DNA of 64,000 nt. Origin: Torpedo marmorata. Taxonomy: Eukaryota. The notes beneath the pieces were generated by a model that worked only from the letters and a program-made list of their open reading frames with translations, had not been told where the DNA came from and made no database searches. The translations under genes and the position numbers were made by a program. Below, piece by piece: positions 16,684 to 63,515 of this stretch. The stretch spans positions 44,764,001 to 44,828,000 of the forward strand of contig OZ360224.1 in assembly GCA_977017645.1 (NCBI GenBank). Reading direction: 5' to 3'. Numbering within the stretch: position 1 is the stretch's first letter; every line of letters begins with the position of its first letter.

Positions 16684-16804
16684 AAAGGTAAAAAAAAGGT
16701 AAAGGTTCCATTATTGTCACGTAATACTACATTTAGAATGTAACATACATGAAATTCTTTAATATTGTCTACCGTAAGGAAGACAGAGTCGCCACTTTGT
16801 CCAG
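16684..16804 (-). mobile_element. 5'-truncated copy of the 5S-derived SINE (tail only)
   Basis: Nearly identical to 50561-50673 (aaaggtaaaggttccattattgtcacgtaatactac...actttgtccag). Confidence 0.9.
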
Positions 16805-17284: not shown

Positions 17285-17990
17285 AATACACAAAAGAGCT
17301 GGAGAAACTCAGCAGGTCACGCAGCGTTCTTTGTGTAGCAAAGATATATAATCAACGTTTAGGGTATGAGCCTCTCCATTCAGAGGCTACACCCCCACCC
17401 ATATCCACCTATTGCCTCTTGCCTGTGGGCCTGTGCTCCTCCCCCTGCCCCCCACCATTTTATTCAGGAGCTTGTCTGCTGTTTGCTCATATGAGCAAAT
17501 AAAATGGTGGGGGGCAGGGGGGAGCACAGGCAAGAGGTAATAGTTGGATATGGGTGGGAGGGCAGAAGAGAAAAAAACTGGGAAGCGAAAGGGGGGGGTG
17601 TAGCCTCTGAATGGAGAGGGAAGGGAGCGGGGAGGGGGAGGAAAGGAAACAGAGGGATGAGAGAGAGAGAGAGAGAGAAAGAAAGAGAGAGAGAGAAGGA
17701 AGAGGGACCTAATGGAAATAGGAAAAGTCAATGTTAATGCCACCTGGTTGGAGAGCGCCCAGACAGAATATCAGGTGCAGAATTGAAATGGTTGACCACT
17801 GGGATATCCACGCTATTGCAGCAGACCGAGCAAAGGTGCTCAATGAAGCGATCTCCCAGTCTGCGTCCAGTCTCACTGATGCGGAGGAGGTCACAACCGG
17901 AGCATCGGATGCAGCAGATGACCCCTGTAGATTCACAAGTGAAGTGTTGCTTCACTTGGAAGGACTGTTTGGGCCCCAAATGGTGGTGAG
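17285..17990 (-). mobile_element. Penelope-like element 3' fragment (GIY-YIG endonuclease remnant and terminus)
   Basis: ORF 17734-17979 reads GPKQSFQVKQHFTCESTGVICCIRC...ISETGRRLGDRFIEHL. The terminus ctggagaaactcagcaggtc is shared with the other copies. Confidence 0.88.
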
Positions 17991-38534: not shown

Positions 38535-38767
38535 AAAATTAAAACACGAAAATCTGTAGACACCGTGGTTGAAGTAAAAAACACAAATGCTGGAGAAACT
38601 CAGCAGGTCAAACAGTGTCTTTTATGTAGTAAAGGTAGAAATACATAACCGACGATTCGGGCTTGAGCCCAAGGGCTCAAGCCCGAATCGTCGGTTATGT
38701 ATTTCTACCTTTGCTACATAAAAGACACTGTTTGACCTGCTGAATTTCTCCAGCATTTGTGTTTTTT
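38535..38767. mobile_element. Hairpin (inverted-terminus) Penelope-derived insertion with target-site duplication
   Basis: Arms 38576-38670 and 38673-38767 are reverse complements with 2 mismatches. The insertion is flanked by gaatctgtgcata at 38522-38534 and 38768-38780. Its sequence matches the Penelope terminus at 62064-62187. Confidence 0.93.
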
Positions 38768-42412: not shown

Positions 42413-42970
42413 AAATGCTTGATTTTATTTTAATGACTATGTAATTTTTGAATGATTTCTGATTTAGTAAATCTCTAAGGTAGATTTTTCTCTCTTAAGG
42501 AGCAAAATATTCCGCTAACCCTCACATGTGTTATTGGTTGAAAAATTAGCCCACTAAACATGTAACCTAACCTTAACTCTTTCACCTTCATGAACTCGTG
42601 CTGCTTTTAACAGAATTCTTTCGCGATGAGATTAATCTATATTTAGGTTTTGCGCTGCTTCATTCATTCTTTAGAAAATTAAAGAAAGACTCACATCCGT
42701 GGGTCATTATAAGAATTGAGACCATATGAGATTCCATTAAAAACATCCGGAATTATTTCACTATTGTAGTTCTATTATAAGTAAAGTAAATCTTAAATAG
42801 AAATTCGGATAGATTGGAAGAAAGCTATGCAGCCGGCTTTTCGGTAATCATGACGTGCGGGTTGAGGGGGTTAAACCAATTTCCATAGCAACCGGATAAT
42901 GTGCCATTCCATACATCTGATTTGTGTTATCTGACGGCAACATTCATTGTCTTATTTTCTTAACCCCCAG

Positions 42971-43268
42971 GCAACTTTGCAAAGAATTCACAGATCTGCT
43001 GGCACAGGATAGGAGTCCTTTGGGGAACACCAGGCCCAACCCGATACTAGACCCAGGCATCCAGAGCTGTTTGACTCACTTTAGCCTCATTACGCATGGT
43101 TTTGGCTCTCCTGCCATTTGCGCTGCTCTCACAGCTGTCCAGAACTACCTGACGGAAGCATTAAAGGGACTGGACAAGATGTTCTTAAACAACAACCCTA
43201 ATAGACACACATCTGGAGGGGAGGCGGGCACCAAAACTGGAGACAAGGAGGAAAAGAACAGGAAATGA
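42971..43268 (+). CDS. TFAP2B: AP-2 beta exon 7, coding part to the stop codon
   Basis: Acceptor cccccag|G; (K)[22 protein letters not shown]...[18 protein letters not shown]...[12 protein letters not shown]. The beta-type C-terminus and N-terminus support the paralogue call. Confidence 0.97.
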
Positions 43269-49865: not shown

Positions 49866-50560
49866 TGCAAATAGTTTAATTTGTTTTCCAATATTTTTGG
49901 CAGCTGATCTGGCACTGTTTTGCACCACTGCTAAATATAATTTACTTGAATTTTGAGAAAACTTGTCTTTTTATCAGTGAGTTTTTCCTGGTCTCATGCC
50001 TGTCAATGATATGCATTTATTTTGTTGAAAAAAAACCAAGGTAAAGGCTGAGATACATGGTGCTGGCACTACGTGTTGAGTATATGCATGAAATGAGTCA
50101 GTAATGGTGAGTAAGCAACACCCACTTTGCTGTAAAAGTGAATGATCACTGAAAGTTTATGAAACTTAAGAGTTAATGGTTTTGATGGCCAAGAAAAAAA
50201 GCCCAGATAACCTCAATAGACCCAACATATTGGCTTAATGTAAGGAAAGGTGACAAGAAAGATAAAGTGAAGTTCTCTATATCTAAATGCAAATAGTATT
50301 CCAAACAAAGTTAATGAGCAGCACACAAAAGGTCAACAGGTATGATCTGATAGATATTACAGTAACATGGTTACATGGAATTCAAAGCTTGGAACTCGAC
50401 ATTCAGAGGAGTTGACTTTTGGGAGTGATGGTCGGAAAGGAAAGGTTCATGGGGTGGCTCTGCTAATAAGAGATAAAATACGTACAACTGTGAGAGATGA
50501 CTGAGGCTCAGAAGTACAGTTCAGTTGGTTGGAGGTAAAAAGTAACAAGTCAGAGAATAT

Positions 50561-50798
50561 AAAGGTAAAGGTTCCATTATTGTCACGTAATACTACATTT
50601 AGAATGTAACATACATGAAATTCTTTAATTTTTGTCTACCGTAAGGCAGACAAAGGGTCGCTACTTTGTCCAGCGCCCCTCACAGAAACCTACAGCACCT
50701 GGTGTTCCTTGATGGTCTCCCCTCCAAGTACTGACCAGTCCTGTGCCTGCTTAGCTTCCGAGATCAGACAATCCCAGTCATATTCAGGCTATTGGTGC
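50561..50798 (-). mobile_element. 5S rRNA-derived SINE, near full length
   Basis: The reverse complement contains gtctgatctcggaagctaagcagg...tggtcagtacttggaggggagacc...ggtgctgtagg (5S-like), then a unique body and a (tttacc)n tail. Confidence 0.92.
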
Positions 50799-51702: not shown

Positions 51703-54060
51703 TTTCAAGTTCATGTTCAAGTTTATTATCATCTGACTGTACATATACAACGAAACAAAACTTTGTTTCTCCAGACCACGGTGCACACATATACACACAC
51801 AATACACAGTACGTAATAATCACATACAAACATAAAGATACCATTTAAAATGAATGTATATAAATATTTTGGGATGGGTTACTTGGTTATAGGATGCTGC
51901 TCATCAATCTCAAACCCTGTGGGAAGAAGCTATTTCCCAGCCTGGCAGTCCTGATTTTGATGCTCCTGTACCTCCTTGTTGATGGTACTGGGTCAAAGAT
52001 ACTGTGTGCTGGATGGAAAGGGTCTTCGATAATTCTTTGAGCCATATTTAAGCAATGCTTCTGGTAAACATCACTAATAGAGGAAAGGGAGGCCCCAGTG
52101 ATCTTCTTGGCCTTTTTGATGATTCTCTGTATTGACTTATGGTCCGATGCTTTGCAGCTAGCATACCATATAATGATGCAGCCAGACAGGACACTCTCAG
52201 TTGTGCTCCTGTCACAATTTGTCAAGATAAGGGCCAGTAGCCTTGCCCTACTAACCCTCCTTAGGAAGTGGGTCCAGGATAGTTATCCTTTATATGCACA
52301 CCAAGGAATTCTGTTCTCTCCATTCTCTCCACTCTCTCATTGATGTACAATGAAGAGTAGTCGACCTTCATCCTCATTAAGTCCACAATCATCTCCTTTG
52401 TCTTGTCAATGTTGGGACTCAAGTTGTTGTTCTTGCACCATTTTACCAACCTCCTCTCGATAAGACAACTCATCATTGTTGACGATGAGGCCAACTATTG
52501 TTGTATCATCTGCAAATTTGATGATTCTGTTGGAACTGAATTTGGCAGTGCAGTCGTGAGTCAGCAGCGTGAACAGTAGTGGGCTGAGCATACAGCCCTG
52601 AGGTGCGCCAGTGCTCAACGTGATGGGGCTTGAGTTTTTGCTGCCAACCTGGACTGACTTTGGTGTTTCGGTCAAGAGGTCGTGAACCCAGTTGCAGAGA
52701 GGAGTGTTGTCCCAGCGAGGACAGTTTATTAGTTTAACCTCTGACGTATGATCGTGTTGAATGCCGAGCTGAAGTCAATGAACAACAGCCTGGGTGGTTC
52801 TGGACAGAGGGGAGGTCAAGGCTATTGTATCGTCTGTGGATTGGATTGGTTCCAATATCACTGGAAGTTATAACTTGATGCGTTCTATTACCATTTGCTC
52901 AAAGCACTTCATAATCGGAGAGCCACTGGGCAGTAGCTATTTAGTCTGGTTACTCTCGCTCCCTTGGGCACTGGGATCATGGTGGCTGCTTTGAATCCTG
53001 CAGGGACAGTGGACTGCTGCAGTGAGATGCTGAAGATGTCCATTGGGACCTCTGTCAGCTCGGCTATACAGTTCTTCAGCACCTGACCAGGTATGTTGTC
53101 TGGTCCTGTTGCTTTCTGTGGGTTTATTATGGATAGGATCCTCCTCACCTCAGCCGTGGCTATGCAGGGGGCCTGCTCTTCAGTGGGAGATGAGGCTTTC
53201 TTTGGTGTTACATTCTTTTATTCATTAAACTGTGCGTGGAAGGTATTCAACCTGTCAGGAACCGCAGAGTTGTCTTATAGTCAGTTATGGTTTGAATACC
53301 CCTGCCACCAGCGTCTTGTGTTACTGGTGTCACACAGGTGTCTGGATTCTCAGTGTATACCCATGCTTTCCCTTCCTGATTGCATGGGATAGCTCAGCCC
53401 TTATTGATCTTAATGTTATCTTGTCACTCAAGCTGAAGGCAGCGTCACGAGCTCTGAGTAATGGACAAACCTCCGCGTCTAGCCATGGTTTCTGATTTGG
53501 CCTGGCTGTATGGTGTTTGATCACCTTAACATCCTCAATGCACTTGGCTATGTAGCTAGTCACTGAACTCAGGTCCTGATCTCACTGTGAACTTGTTTGA
53601 CTTGTTTTAACTGTGGTCTATTTATACAGGGATTGGCAGAATGGATACATAGTCTCAATATCCAAGCTGGGGGCAGGAGGTGGGGTAGACTTGAATGCTC
53701 CAGGGACATTTGTGTAGACAAGATCTAAGATATTCTCTCCTCTGGTTGCAAAGTTTAAATGTTGTTGGAACTTTGGCAGGACTGTTGTTAAGTTGACGGG
53801 ATTGAAGTCACCAGCAACAATCATACAGTGAGTTGCCTGGACTTCACAGATGGCCGTGTAAAGCTCTCTCAGTGCTTCACCAGCATTTGCTGAAGGAGGA
53901 ACATAAACCACTGTAATTTGAGGGGCTGTGAATTCCCTGGTAAGTAGAAGTGCCTGCACTTCACCATTAAGAACTCTAGCTCTGGTGAGCAGTAGGCCTT
54001 TACTGTGGAAACATTTGTACACCAGTCCTTGTTGATGTGGATGCACAAACCCCCTCTTAC
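51703..54060 (-). mobile_element. Rex1/Babar-type LINE, frameshifted endonuclease and RT
   Basis: ORF pieces include VVYVPPSAN...IVAGDFN (endonuclease), [30 protein letters not shown]...[12 protein letters not shown] (RT) and ESVLSGCIIIWY. The tail is (tgaact)n. Confidence 0.9.
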
Positions 54061-54079
54061 CGAACGGCAGCATTTCTAT

Positions 54080-54530
54080 CTGCTCTAGAGGAGATAACAG
54101 GCCTTTCAACCCAACGTATTCATACCAACCACGTTGTCCACCTAAGTTAGTCCCATTTGCCTGCATTTGTACCTTTTCATCTTGTTGTTTCATATCCATG
54201 CCCCCGTCTAAATGAATTTTAAATCTTCCTGCTTCTACTACTTCCTCTGATAGCTCATTCCATCTCCCTGATGTCCTGTGTGTGAAGAAAATGTGGGCCA
54301 CAGGTCCCTTTTAAATCTTTCCTCTCTCATTTTAAATCCATGCCATTAATTTTAGTCTTTTTCCCAGGGTAGGTGAATCTAAAACTAATGATCATTTATC
54401 TTATATTTGTCCCCTCATGATTTTATAAACCTCTATTTTGACCTTCCTTAGCTTCCCAAGTTCTAAGGAAAAAGTCCCAGCTTATCCAGTATCTCCTTAT
54501 AATTGAAGCTCAACATTCCCAGTCACATTC
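54080..54530 (-). mobile_element. CR1 LINE 3' fragment
   Basis: Reads FFTHR..GRWNELSEEVVEAG.FKIHLD. Its probable tail (atagagtcattgggtcatagag) lies at about 51681-51702, beyond the Rex1 insertion. Confidence 0.75.
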
Positions 54531-56289: not shown

Positions 56290-56533
56290 GCACCAATAGC
56301 CTGAATACGACTGGGATTGTCTGATCTTGGAAGCTAAGCAGGCACAGGACTGGTCAGTACTTGGAGGGGAGACCGCCAAGGAACACCAGGTGCTGTAGGT
56401 TTCTGTGAGGGGCGCTGGACAAAGTAGCGACCCTCTGTCTGCCTTACGGTAGACAAAAATTAAAGAATTTCATGTATGTTACATTCTAAATGTAGTATTA
56501 CGTGACAATAATGGAACCTTTACCTTTACCTTT
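56290..56533 (+). mobile_element. 5S rRNA-derived SINE, near full length
   Basis: 5S-like head to about 56402, body, and (tttacc)n tail. I count 5 differences from the copy at 50561-50798. Confidence 0.92.
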
Positions 56534-57555: not shown

Positions 57556-57964
57556 TTAATCTTATTGAACGGCAGAATAGGTTTAAGGGGACAAATTGAT
57601 TGGTTCTGTTCTTATATTTTAATGATCTTATGGTCTAATCAAAGTTAGTAAATTCTCCTAACTTTTACAAATTGCTCCAGCCACTATCAGCAGAGATTCC
57701 AAAAAGTAAATTAATATCTTTTGAGCTTGGGAACAAGAAGAGCATCACCTTAGGCTCCATAAAACTTGATTCAGTTATCAACTTTCTAGTTAACCCCGTA
57801 AGCAACCTAACATTCTCAGAAAGCCAAGTAGAGCAACTGATAATGTTATGATTTGGAGTTATCCGCAGAGTAACTGATTTACAGTTGCCAAATGTGAACT
57901 TGAGTATAATTGGTCACTGTTCAAAATGGCTCTCTGCAGGATCTATTGAATAGCCACCTGGAGT

Positions 57965-58705
57965 TAAACAAGAAAGTTTGTAGACACTTTGATTGTAGTT
58001 TAATACACAAAAGTGTTGGAGAAACTCAGTACAGGCCTCACAACATCCATAGAAATCAAAGATATATAACCAACGTTTCGGGCCTGAGCCCTTCTTCAAG
58101 GTATGAGCAAAAAGCAGGCAGGCACCTGAATAAAAAGGAGGGAGGAGAAGTAAAAAGGGGGCAGGGGGAGGAGCACAGTCCAACAGGCAAGAGGTCATAG
58201 GTGGATATGGGTGGGAGGGCAGAAGAGATAAAAATCTGGGAAGTGATAGGGGGAGTGGGTAGCTGTCTGAATGCAGAGGGAAGGGCGTGAGGAGCTGGAA
58301 GAAAGGAGAGATAGGGAAAGGGAAAGAGAGAGGGAGACACTGGAGAGTCCAAATGGAAACTGGAGAAGTTGATGTTAATGCTATCTGGTTGGAGAGTGCC
58401 CAGACGGAATATTACGTGTTGTTCCTCCAATTTGGGGGTGGCCTCTGTTTGGCTGTGCATGAGGCCATGGACAGACATGTCGCTGTTGGAATGGGGCACG
58501 GAATTGAAATAATTGGCCACTGGGAAGTCCCTGCTATTGCAGTGGACAGAGTGAAGGTGCTCAACGAAATGATCTCCCAGTCTGCGTCCAATCTCTCCGA
58601 AATAGAGGAGGCCACAACATGCACACCTGATGCAGTAGATGACCCCTGCAGAGTTGCTTCATTTGGAAGGACTGTTTGGGGCCCAGAATGGTGGTGAGGA
58701 AGGGC
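57965..58705 (-). mobile_element. Penelope-like element 3' fragment
   Basis: ORF 58056-58520 reads ANYFNSVPHSNSDMSVHGLMH...KLEEQHVIFRLGTLQPDSININFSSF. The shared terminus carries a hammerhead-like motif. Confidence 0.88.
58063..58106 (-). ncRNA. Minimal type I hammerhead-like motif in a Penelope terminus
   Basis: Minus strand reads AUACC UUGAAGA A GGGC UCAG GCCC GAAAC GUU GGUUAU. Confidence 0.6.
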
Positions 58706-59044: not shown

Positions 59045-59575
59045 AGTGATCCCACCAAGAGACATATTCCCCTCTCCTCCCCTCTCCGCTCCCTCCATGA
59101 CTCCCTTGTCCACTCCTCCATCCCCACCAATCGACCCCTTGACACCTACCCCTGTGACGGCAGGAGATTCTCCACTTGCGTCCACATGTCCTCCTTCACC
59201 ACCATTCAGGGCCCCAAACAGTCCTTCCAAGTGAAGAAACAATTCACTTGTGAATCTGCAGGGGTCATCTACTGCATCCGGTGCTTCCTTTGTGGTTTCC
59301 TCTACATCGGAGAGACTGGGTGCAGACTGGGAGATCACTTTGTTGAGCACCTCAGCTTTATCCACCACAATAGCATGGATCTCCCAGTGGCCACCCATTT
59401 CAATTCCCTGTCCCATTCCCTTGCTGACATGTCTCTCCATGTTCTCGTTCATTGCCAGACTGAGACTGAGTAACAACACTTCATCTTCTGCCTGGGCACC
59501 CTTCAGCTGGATGACATTAATATCGACTTCTCCGGCTTCTGTTAACCCCCTCCCCACATTTTTCTTCCTCCTTTG

Positions 59576-59623
<48 letters not shown>

Positions 59624-59905
59624 CTTTTCCCCCTGTCTCCTTTCACAGAGCCAAAATCAATTCTCACCACTCCCCTTACATTATCCAATTAACAACTTTC
59701 GTTGGCCTGGACTCCTCCCCCAGCCAGTCTTGTCTTTATTCTGATGCCTTCCTGTTCTTTGCTTATTCCTTGAAGAAGGGCTCAGGCCCGAAACGTCGGT
59801 AATATATCTTTACCTCGTATGGACGCTGAGAGACCAACCGAGTTCCTCCAGCATTTCTGTGTGTTTTTACTACAATCACAGCGACTGCAGACTTTCGTGT
59901 TTCAC
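59045..59905 (+). mobile_element. Penelope-like element 3' fragment
   Basis: ORF 59186-59473 reads QGPKQSFQVKKQFTCESAGVIYCIRC..CGFLYIGETGCRLGDHFVEHL (GIY-YIG). It includes (CT)n at 59577-59618 and the shared terminus. Confidence 0.9.
59763..59806 (+). ncRNA. Minimal type I hammerhead-like motif in a Penelope terminus
   Basis: UAUUCC UUGAAGA A GGGC UCAG GCCC GAAAC GUC GGUAAUA. Confidence 0.65.
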
Positions 59906-60844
59906 TTTTTCTCCCCTCCCTCATCAGACCTCCCTTAACTTCATCTTCAAGGGCCATAGCTTAGCCATTTCATACCAGAGATCCAAATGAGTTACATTTG
60001 GACACCTTTTTAAACCACTGCGATAAGGTGGAACACCCTAAAACGCAATATAATTTTCCAAATTAAGTTTTCTCCCAGTACAAGGTTTGCCCATGGACTT
60101 TTCCTTGGCACGTCAATTTGTTATATTAAAGCACAGGAAAATGATCAGTGCAAGGAGAACAATATCTAGGGAAGGAGTCCTTGCTGTTAAGAAAAAAAGG
60201 AGGGAACCTTACTAAATGGCAAAGATAAAATATGGGCCAAAAATACACCAGCAATTTCTTTTATTCATGATTGTTATATTTATAATTCAGTAAGAGAATA
60301 AAATATGATCAGTACAAAACAAATTACAAGGTAATTAGAGGCTAGTTATTATAATAGTGTTTTTTGTTTATTGGCCATTTTGGATTTAAAATGTTGATCT
60401 TAACACCCGCATCCACCCCCTCACCTCGCACTCCAAGTCAAATGAAACACATTCCTCAATGCTACTAAAGTTGCTAAAATTATGCCTTGAGGTATTCAGT
60501 GCTGTCACTAAAATCTGGTCACATCTAATTGACCACAATGTAAATCCCACAGCCCTGATGAATGAAGTACATATTTAGCATTTGATCTCATCTCAACATC
60601 TGACATTGTCAGTTCATGTATATCAGGAATTAGGAGGAGGCAAAGACTACTTTGTCCAAACCACGCATTTTAAGCAAATTTCAGAAGATTATCAAGGTGA
60701 GCTTGTGCCATCTCTACATGCATACTTACCATCAACTGTTCCTTGAATAGAATTGTCCAACTGGCAAGTATACCTATTAGTACATTTAAAAGGATCTCAA
60801 CACAAATTTTAAGAAAATGCACAAAATATTTCATTATTTGATTG

Positions 60845-61950: not shown

Positions 61951-62061
61951 GGACTAACGTAGTAGCAAAAGTAGCATAAGCTACGGGCCCCGCATTTTGA
62001 AGGGCTTTAAATGCTTGCTCTATTACTATAGTACAGGTGCCTAACCTTTTATCCGAAAAAA

Positions 62062-63515
62062 ACCGAAAATCTGTAGACACTGTGGTTGGAGCAAAAAACA
62101 CAAATGCTGGAGAAACTCAGCAGGTCAAACAGTGTCTTTTATGTAGCAAAGGTAGAAATACATAACCGATGTTTCGGGCTTGAGCCCTTCATCAAAGTAT
62201 GAGAAAATGCCGGCAGGCGTCCGAACAAAAGAGTGAGGGGAGAAAGGGGGTGGCGAAGGCAGGAGATGATAAGTGGATAAAGGAGGGAGAGGACAGCAGC
62301 AAAGAGAGGGAGGAGGGATGGCTGGGTGGGTGGAAAAAACAGGAAGGACAGGTGAGGGGGGAGGGGAAGGAAAAGACAAGCAGGTTTAGTGGAAAGCAGA
62401 AAAGTCAATGTTAATGCCATCTGGCTGGAGAGTGCCCAGATGGAAAATGAGATGTTGTTCCTCCAATTTGCAGGTAGTCTGGGTGGGATAGTACATAAGG
62501 CCATGGACAGACATGTGAGTGTGGGAGTGTGACTCGGAATTGAAATGGCTGGCTAGTGGGAGGTCGCTGTTGTTGTGGACGGAGAGGAGGTGCTCAGCAA
62601 AGCGATCTCCCAATCTACAACCGGTCTCTCCGATATAGAGAAAGCCACAAAGGGAGCACTGGATGCAGTAAATATGTTCTCTGGATGTACAAGTGAAGTG
62701 TAGTTTCACTTGAAAGGCCTGTTTGGGGCCCCGGACCGTGGTGAGGGGGGAGGTGTGGGCGCAGGTGTTGCACCTCCTGCGGGCACAGGGGAAGGTGCCG
62801 GGGGTGCGATGGGTGGGGAGGGATGAGTGCATGAGGGAATCGTGGAGGAAGCGGTCCCTGCGGAAGGCCGAGAGGGGAGGAGAAGGAAAAATGTGTCTGG
62901 TGGTGGGATCCTGTAGTAAGTGCCGGAAATTCCGGCAGATAATGTGTTGGATGCGGAGGCTGGTGGGGTGATAGGTGAGGATGAGGGGGATTCTATGTTT
63001 GTTGCATCTGGGGGCAGAGGGGGCCTGGGCAGATGAGCGGGAAATGGAGGAGATGCGGGTGAAGGCTGAGTTGATGGTGGTGGAGGGGAAGCCACATTTG
63101 TGGAAGAAGGCAGACATTTCAGAAGATCTGGACTGGAAGACCTCATCTTGGGAACAGATGAGGCAGAGACGGAGAAATTGAGAGAAGGGGATGGAATCCT
63201 AGGGTGTGAGGAAGTGTAGTCCAGATAGTTGTGGGAGTTGGAGGGTTTGTAGTAAATGTCGGTGGAAAGCTTGTCTCCTGAGATGGAGACAGAGAGATCC
63301 AGGAAGGGGAGAGTATTATCGGAGATGGACCAGGTGAGTTTGAGATCGTGGTGGAAGTTCGATGCGAAGTGGATGAAGTTGACAAGCTCATCACGGGTGC
63401 ATGAGGCAGCCCCGATGTAGTCGCCGATATAACTGAGGAAGAGATGAGGGGTCTTGCCTGTGTAGGCTTGCAGCATGGATTGCTCCACAAAGCCCACAAA
63501 CAGGCAGGCGTAGTG
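62062..63515 (-). mobile_element. Penelope-like element, 5'-truncated (RT C-terminal part, GIY-YIG, terminus)
   Basis: RT motifs YACLFVGFVEQ, YIGDYIG (decayed YIDD) and LPFLDLSV..DIYYKP, then a frameshift into ORF 62386-63117 with C..C, HIYCIQC..CGFLYIGETG and EQHLIFHLGTLQPDGIN. Confidence 0.93.
62161..62201 (-). ncRNA. Minimal type I hammerhead-like motif in a Penelope terminus
   Basis: Minus strand reads CAUACU UUGAUGA A GGGC UCAA GCCC GAAAC AUC GGUUAUG. Confidence 0.6.

What the first reader, a model, noticed from the sequence alone, without database searches (positions are those of the whole stretch)
59763..59806. Minimal hammerhead ribozyme motifs with a shared non-canonical core in Penelope termini
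Seen in three copies (59763-59806 +, 58063-58106 -, 62161-62201 -; decayed at about 17350-17385): stem I strand, UUGA(A/U)GA, an extra A, stem II GGGC-UCAR-GCCC, GAAAC, then GUC, GUU or AUC, and the stem I partner with one bulge. Established: Penelope-like elements carry minimal type I hammerheads with a tiny palindromic stem III (ACGU) thought to cleave as dimers; the canonical core is CUGANGA. All three copies here have U in place of C3 while G8 is kept, so it is a family-level variant. Inference: self-cleaving or attenuated ribozymes dispersed at high copy number, able to process element RNA and perhaps host read-through transcripts.
Basis: partly seen in the sequence, partly recalled or inferred. 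Interest (0 to 1): 0.7.

Follow-up and report, generated by a model that had tools for sequence, protein, structure and literature searches.

The report
Wobble-core hammerhead in Penelope retrotransposon ends
The repeated motif is the small hammerhead RNA element that Penelope-type jumping genes are known to carry; in this genome about 98% of its roughly 100,000 copies share one altered core base that has appeared in print before, and the motif likely works as a slow self-cutting RNA, although cutting is untested.

Summary
The three motifs are minimal type I hammerheads in the 3' pseudo-LTRs of truncated Penelope-like elements. U3 with G8 is the norm: 97,939 of 99,697 genome matches, and the consensus of 6 of 7 subfamilies spanning 2.5-23% divergence. 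No U3-A8 subfamily has amplified.

Across five U3 subfamilies the other ten core bases are invariant while N7 and the flanks vary, and the stems covary, so the fold is still constrained. The GUU and AUC triplets are CpG decay of GUC, and the 'decayed' fourth copy is truncated inside stem II.

The DNA shows no trace of cutting. Copy ends do not pile up at the cleavage site (40 versus 43 at a control position; 0 of 40 ORF-start copies), and nearly all copies span it. Ends pile up 30-33 nt upstream instead.

Best reading: a slow, probably dimer-dependent ribozyme whose templates are mostly uncut or re-ligated. Host-transcript processing has no support. A U3-G8 Penelope hammerhead is already in Cervera and de la Pena 2014 (Fig. 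S3), and this scan noted the same family on other pieces of this genome.

The parts
59763..59806 (+). Minimal type I hammerhead motif: U3 59770, G8 59775, stem II 59778-59789, ACGU palindrome 59793-59796, predicted cut after C17 59797
   Evidence: predicted MFE is the stem I + stem II fold, -9.8 kcal/mol
59048..59907 (+). 5'-truncated older Penelope-like copy (B/C subfamily): linker and GIY-YIG remnant, pyrimidine tract, hammerhead, long tail
   Evidence: 68% identical to full-length copy L108; translation
58063..58106 (-). Hammerhead motif, U3 at 58099, position 17 is U by CpG decay
57962..58699 (-). 5'-truncated older Penelope-like copy, head to head with the 59048 copy across about 350 bp of unrelated DNA
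   Evidence: 68% identical to L108; gap sequence
62161..62201 (-). Hammerhead motif of the youngest subfamily, U3 at 62195, G16.2 changed to A by CpG decay (palindrome broken)
62059..63513 (-). 5'-truncated young copy: RT C-terminal part, C-X4-CxxC linker, GIY-YIG, pLTR, long tail
   Evidence: 96% identical to L108; 91% protein identity to an ORF with weak RVT_1 and GIY-YIG hits
17285..17372 (-). Core-less 3' end of an older copy that starts inside stem II; belongs to a rearranged insertion reaching 17977
38537..38767 (.). Two young stubs head to head, joined inside stem II, one long tail and one short tail; no core

Best explanation
The motif is the minimal hammerhead in the pseudo-LTR of an abundant Penelope-like retrotransposon, with a U3-G8 wobble as the lineage norm, and it likely still acts as a slow, dimer-dependent self-cutting RNA that leaves most templates uncut. 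Shown by sequence: it lies about 200 nt after the RT/GIY-YIG stop codon and 153 nt before the start codon of the next unit; copies end at two fixed points 75-80 or 110-120 nt past the predicted cut; almost all copies span the cut site. Inferred: reverse transcription starts at those two points and copies through an intact hammerhead. Inferred: two motifs pair through ACGU to build stem III and cut after GUC only rarely, because a U3-G8 wobble would hold the general acid G8 poorly and a competing hairpin would bury the core in the youngest subfamily. Inferred: rare cutting, perhaps with re-ligation to circles, would be what selection keeps.
For: In five U3 subfamilies 10 of 10 other core bases are invariant, N7 takes three states, and stem II varies only in its loop, against 40 of 62 variable flank columns (Fisher p=2e-6). 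Stems show two-sided changes between subfamilies: 10.4-11.4 C-G versus U-A, 2.2-1.2 C-G versus U-A, 2.3-1.3 A-U versus U-A versus G-C. Position 3 is always a pyrimidine opposite G8 (U in 6 consensuses, C in 1), as expected if a 3-8 pair still matters. The extra base after A9, G10.1-C11.1 and the 15.2-16.2 palindrome match the published family traits. The Anolis Penelope hammerhead cleaves in vitro and depends on the 3-8 pair. A natural U3...G8 core with a 2-nt insertion exists in haloviruses, with a mapped 5' end near its cut site.
Against: No cleavage was measured and no cleavage scar was found: 40 of 65,584 young copies have foreign bases just before +1, versus 43 at +3, and 0 of 40 ORF-start copies begin at +1. 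The youngest subfamily folds in silico into a rod that pairs the core with the cleavage strand (-12.5 versus -8.4 kcal/mol), as do Y2, B2, D and F. The dimer MFE is a stem II duplex, 5-9 kcal/mol below the hammerhead dimer for the B and C types. Against the quieter downstream block (9 of 30 variable) the conservation excess is not significant (p=0.11). C3U without G8A is recalled to slow cleavage strongly; the primary papers were not held. In Anolis, catalytic mutants did not impair insertion in vitro and no RNA ends mapped to the cut.
Confidence: 0.55

Rival explanations
1. The motif is catalytically dead but kept as a structure or sequence for another job: RT binding or pausing, translation control of the ORF 153 nt downstream, or an internal promoter.
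For: Templates are intact at the site. Naiad elements thrive without hammerheads and Anolis insertion does not need cleavage in vitro. 5' ends pile up at -30 to -33 (497 matches at -33 versus 40 at +1), at the base of the hairpin and on an initiator-like TCATAC (consensus recalled). The wobble was never repaired by an amplified G8A: 2,486 non-G8 matches, 2.5%, close to the 1.8% with C3.
Against: The pattern of constraint is the catalytic one: N7 free, G5, G8, G12 and H17 fixed, stems covarying. In Anolis the core was dispensable for protein-dependent insertion (RNA starting at +20 still worked), so binding does not obviously explain the conservation.
Confidence: 0.3
2. The motif is a neutral relic inactivated by C3U and carried along by the master elements.
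For: Only 7 subfamily consensuses, some from 7-8 copies; the excess over the quieter flank block is not significant; the youngest subfamily also weakened pair 2.1-1.1 to U-G.
Against: U3 is already present in 88 of the first 100 matches of the oldest subfamily, about 23% diverged, yet no other core base changed in any consensus while the stems changed in compensating pairs.
Confidence: 0.1
3. Dispersed copies cut host read-through or intronic transcripts and so shape host gene output.
For: About 100,000 exact copies. The 59763 copy lies on the same strand as, and about 16 kb downstream of, a TFAP2-family terminal exon.
Against: Lone copies lack a dimer partner; published minimal hammerheads showed no monomer cleavage; two of the three window copies carry CpG decay at the cleavage triplet; copies mutate through the core after insertion.
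Confidence: 0.05

Closest known systems
Minimal type I hammerheads (min-HHR) in pLTRs of metazoan Penelope-like elements (Cervera and de la Pena 2014, PMC4209133; parts 1-2 of 4 of the text and parts 1-2 of 3 of the supplement read)
   Same: Position in the pLTR, extra base after A9, G10.1-C11.1, C-G palindrome in place of stem III, short stem I, mostly lone truncated copies. Fig. S3 row Saccoglossus kowalevskii(1), marked as PLE-associated, has U3 with G8.
   Different: The published consensus is C3-G8 and the text discusses only U3-A8. Here U3-G8 is the consensus of 6 of 7 subfamilies and about 98,000 exact copies. No cartilaginous fish is listed in the 56-row alignment. Stem I has a one-base bulge in five subfamilies.
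Poseidon element PAc of Anolis carolinensis (Frangieh et al. 2024, PMC11167929; part 1 of 4 and passages read)
   Same: Hammerhead at the pLTR-ORF junction, two internal RT start sites giving an optional tail, uncleaved RNA as template.
   Different: PAc has C3-G8 and its ORF starts inside the hammerhead. Here the ORF starts at +153 and the protein has the CX2-5CxxC linker described for Neptune.
U3-A8 min-HHR of Schistosoma mansoni Cercyon elements (PMC4209133) and other U3-A8 hammerheads (Perreault et al. 2011, PMC3088659; section 8 and passages read)
   Same: U at position 3.
   Different: Those restore a Watson-Crick pair with A8; here G8 is kept and non-G8 copies are only 2.5%.
Halovirus and saltern hammerhead variants with U3...G8 and a 2-nt insertion (PMC3088659 passages; PMC7151607 section 3 read)
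   Same: Natural U3 with G8; the related saltern variant HHmeta is slow unless Mg2+ is very high.
   Different: They carry two inserted bases and belong to archaeal viruses, not to retrotransposons.

Membership tests
Penelope minimal type I hammerhead | Lies in the pLTRs flanking an RT + GIY-YIG ORF | tested here: met
   L108 has two motifs 4,014 bp apart around the coding region; weak RVT_1 and GIY-YIG hits below Pfam cut-offs
Penelope minimal type I hammerhead | U4 G5 A6, G8 A9, G12 A13 A14, A15.1-U16.1 and H17 | tested here: met
   Invariant in 7 of 7 subfamily consensuses
Penelope minimal type I hammerhead | Watson-Crick pair at 3-8 (C-G consensus, U-A variant) | tested here: not met
   U-G in 97,939 of 99,697 matches; the family's own published alignment also holds a U-G row, so this does not exclude it from the family as published
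Penelope minimal type I hammerhead | Extra base between 9 and 10.1, G10.1-C11.1, palindromic 15.2-16.2 | tested here: met
   after allowing for CpG decay
Penelope minimal type I hammerhead | Stems I and II supported by compensatory changes | tested here: met
   Three pairs change on both sides between subfamily consensuses; few independent events
Penelope minimal type I hammerhead | Self-cleavage after H17 as a dimer | not testable with these tools
   No assay; folding models disfavour the active dimer
Neptune-type EN+ Penelope-like element | C-terminal GIY-YIG with CX2-5CxxC linker | tested here: met
   C-X4-CxxC precedes the GIY-YIG motif; feature taken from PMC8557442
Neptune-type EN+ Penelope-like element | Partial-tandem pLTRs, inverted 5' ends and optional 30-40 bp tail | tested here: met
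   3' ends: 46 short and 62 long of 114; partial tandems; head-to-head stubs
Neptune-type EN+ Penelope-like element | RT phylogeny places it with Neptune | not tested
   No reference RT set was on hand
U3-A8 hammerhead variant | A at position 8 | tested here: not met
   G8 in all consensuses; 2,486 non-G8 matches in all
Animal non-LTR retrozyme | Non-coding tandem repeats of about 170-400 nt, each with a hammerhead | tested here: not met
   Window copies are lone 3' ends of a 4-kb coding element

The most novel reading that the evidence does not exclude
The U3-G8 wobble is a selected throttle. This Penelope lineage has kept a deliberately slow ribozyme across subfamilies up to 23% diverged, never fixing the one-transition U3-A8 repair, because it needs mostly uncut RNA as mRNA and template and only rare cut-and-ligate events to make the circular templates behind its partial-tandem insertions. 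The C3 subfamily in the same genome is a natural control for whether Penelope transposition needs cleavage at all.
Probability: 0.22. Interest if true: 0.6.

Novelty: new member of a known kind. Interest (0 to 1): 0.3.

Why it matters
What Penelope hammerheads do is openly unresolved (PMC8557442 suggests they may even parasitise the elements). A very successful young family with a weakened core pair, beside a C3 subfamily in the same genome, gives a ready comparison for whether cleavage is needed. The motif class, its place and the U3-G8 core are already in print, so the gain is a good test case and not a new system.

Tried and rejected
Rfam: no hammerhead family among 38 matches.

Expression: no RNA holder listed on record. 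Laid runs were contigs only, which cannot show RNA ends. Position 3 in other organisms could not be read: one search hid 17 rows and one search listed none.

Alternative register with C3 plus an inserted U: possible for CC|UUGA subfamilies, but rejected because the youngest (CU|UUGA) offers no such C and stem I pairs better in the U3 register.

Transcription start at -33 as a hard 5' end of the template: not supported, since 1 of 40 ORF-start copies ends at -30 to -33 and 21 run further upstream; a copying stop at the hairpin base fits as well.

U3 as a guard against misfolding: it weakens the inactive rod by 0.6-2.4 kcal/mol in 5 subfamilies, but makes no difference in F, and published C3 motifs with G at 1.2 exist. 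Left as a weak idea.

Direction of the C/U change: the 54-copy tree has 22 of 51 inner branches open, so two origins of U3 and one origin with a reversion cannot be told apart.

A second CUGAAGA at +160 has no GAAA partner and lies in coding sequence.

Papers not held: Lunse 2017, Przybilski and Hammann 2007 (32), Nelson and Uhlenbeck 2008 (33), Martick and Scott 2006 (81), Lee and York 2008 (86). Searches found no paper that discusses U3-G8 Penelope hammerheads or measures their rate; Lunse 2017 and bioRxiv supplements that I could not see may cover it.

Full report
OBSERVATION. A 25-letter pattern has 3 exact matches in the window and none in 100 shuffles. In the 6.2-Gb genome it has 99,697 matches with C or U at position 3 and 0 for the reversed control. 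Only 1,758 have C, so U3 holds 98.2%. The fourth copy lacks the 5' half of the core because it starts inside stem II. GUU and AUC are CpG decay: in 73 young copies spanning the motif, the CpG positions at -9, -4, -3, -1 and +1 carry 3-12 changes each, while core positions carry 0-2.

WHAT IT BELONGS TO. Upstream of each motif lie remnants of an RT thumb, a C-X4-CxxC linker and a GIY-YIG nuclease (Pfam hits weak and below cut-off). Locus L108 holds a full-length copy with two motifs 4,014 bp apart. The likely start codon is at +153 from the predicted cut. A 34-letter pattern over this start has 1,879 exact matches, so most copies are 5'-truncated. Of 114 young copies with readable 3' ends, 46 end at +73 to +81 and 62 at +109 to +122, the optional tail described for these elements. 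The linker points to the Neptune type; no RT tree was built.

IS U3-G8 A FAMILY TRAIT? I searched 97 evenly spaced 10-kb stretches with a profile of the downstream flank only and got 99 hits. All loci then held gave 278 distinct hits; 192 remained after dropping core-selected centres and poor matches. They sort into seven subfamilies with mean divergence 2.5% (Y1), 8.5% (Y2), 8.7% (C), 11.5% (B), 12.4% (B2), 16% (D) and 23% (F). Among copies whose motif could be anchored, position 3 is U in 74 of 76 Y1, 14 of 14 Y2, 17 of 19 B, 4 of 5 B2, 5 of 6 C and 4 of 5 F, and C in 6 of 9 D. A genome search for F with position 3 free gave 179 matches; of the 100 listed, 88 have U, 10 C and 2 A (counted by eye). 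U3 with a base other than G at 8 has 2,486 matches, 2.5%, the level of post-insertion mutation, so no U3-A8 subfamily amplified. The tree is too weak to say whether U3 arose twice or D reverted.

IS IT STILL CONSTRAINED? Across the five related U3 subfamilies, 10 of 10 other core bases, the extra A, the ACGU palindrome and all paired bases of stem II are invariant. N7 reads U, U, A, C, A and one loop base varies. Flanks vary at 16 of 24 and 24 of 38 columns, and at 9 of 30 in a quieter block. Fisher's test gives p=2e-6 against the first two and p=0.11 against the last; gaps and small samples inflate the flank counts. Three stem pairs change on both sides between subfamilies. The free positions are the ones a hammerhead tolerates, which argues for selection on the fold after U3 was in place.

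DOES IT CUT? Not shown. A template cut at its 3' motif would give stubs starting at +1. Of 65,584 young copies with +1 to +32 exact, 40 have three foreign bases before +1 (15 of them look like a G insertion), against 43 at the matched control +3. In the 100 listed rows one starts at +1, and it is an internal deletion (by eye). Of 116 young copies, 114 span the site. Of 40 copies carrying the ORF start, none begins at +1, 12 stop downstream and 28 pass it. Templates were therefore uncut or re-ligated. A circle joined at the cut rebuilds the motif, so this does not exclude the published cut-and-ligate model. Ends pile up at -30 to -33 instead: 497 matches at -33 (about five-fold over +1 after rough correction for pattern looseness), 8 versus 2 ends in 4 versus 24 positions in the list (my offset was wrong, which made that list a near-unselected sample; p=6e-6, or 3e-5 without one duplicate), and 13 of 20 F copies start within a few bases of stem I (by eye). 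In folding models the 59763 copy and the B and C consensuses adopt stems I and II as their lowest-energy form, while Y1, Y2, B2, D and F prefer a rod that pairs the core with the cleavage strand. The hammerhead dimer is not the lowest-energy dimer. No RNA end data were available.

MECHANISM. Shown: position, anatomy, U3-G8 as norm, constraint, intact templates, two 3' ends. From the literature: minimal Penelope hammerheads cut weakly and only as dimers (review); the Anolis motif cuts, needs the 3-8 pair and is not needed for insertion in vitro. Recalled, not checked: C3U alone slows cleavage strongly. Inferred: a slow dimer-dependent ribozyme, most RNAs uncut, rare cutting kept by selection (0.55). 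Rivals: dead but kept as a structure or promoter (0.30), neutral relic (0.10), host-RNA cutter (0.05). For the last, the only link is that the 59763 copy is sense to and about 16 kb downstream of a TFAP2-family terminal exon.

KNOWN OR NEW. The class is known (PMC4209133). Its Fig. S3 includes a PLE-associated Saccoglossus motif with U3 and G8, and a halovirus variant has U3...G8 with a 2-nt insertion. Searches found no paper that discusses or measures U3-G8 Penelope hammerheads, but Lunse 2017 and the mutagenesis papers were not held. Also seen: PMC8557442, PMC6765202, PMC2377424 and PMC7229834 (passages), bioRxiv 10.64898/2026.07.22.740005 (part 1 of 5 and passages), PMC6257768 (one reference line). 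The scan's own notes describe this family on other pieces of the genome. Verdict: a real, well-conserved new member of a known kind, useful as a test case; interest 0.3.

Noticed in passing
genome-wide; e.g. L010, L029, L107, L174, L208-L227: 5' ends of truncated copies pile up 30-33 nt upstream of the predicted cut, at the base of stem I and on an initiator-like TCATAC or TCAGTC (consensus recalled); much stronger in the oldest subfamily (13 of 20). Cause unresolved: copying stop at the hairpin, transcription start or junction microhomology.
   Followed up: partly
L233-L259, L113: Among 28 ORF-start copies that pass the cut site, 4 end at -5 to -8, on or next to the ACGU palindrome.
   Followed up: no
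window 42921-43268 +: Exon encoding the C-terminal end of a TFAP2-family transcription factor (PF03299, E=1.7e-15); the window holds the 3' part of that gene.
   Followed up: no
window 50560-50798, 56290-56528, 16690-16766: Two 239-nt copies, 98% complementary, each with a 5S rRNA-like part (38.4 and 36.4 bits), plus a fragment of the other end: probably a young 5S-derived SINE.
   Followed up: no
window 38537-38767: Head-to-head pair of young stubs joined inside stem II, with one long and one short tail; similar pairs in L010, L014, L020, L033, L167.
   Followed up: partly
window 51887-54310 -: Broken LINE remnant with RVT_1 and endonuclease hits.
   Followed up: no
L108 about 7230-6750 (- strand): The N-terminal part of the ORF holds a variable-length array of roughly 57-bp GC-rich repeats followed by a proline-rich stretch.
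   Followed up: no
window 58075-58134, 59735-59770; subfamilies Y2, B, B2, D: Older subfamilies have a pyrimidine tract ending in TTCAG about 30 nt upstream of stem I, like a 3' splice site; the youngest subfamily has lost the AG.
   Followed up: no
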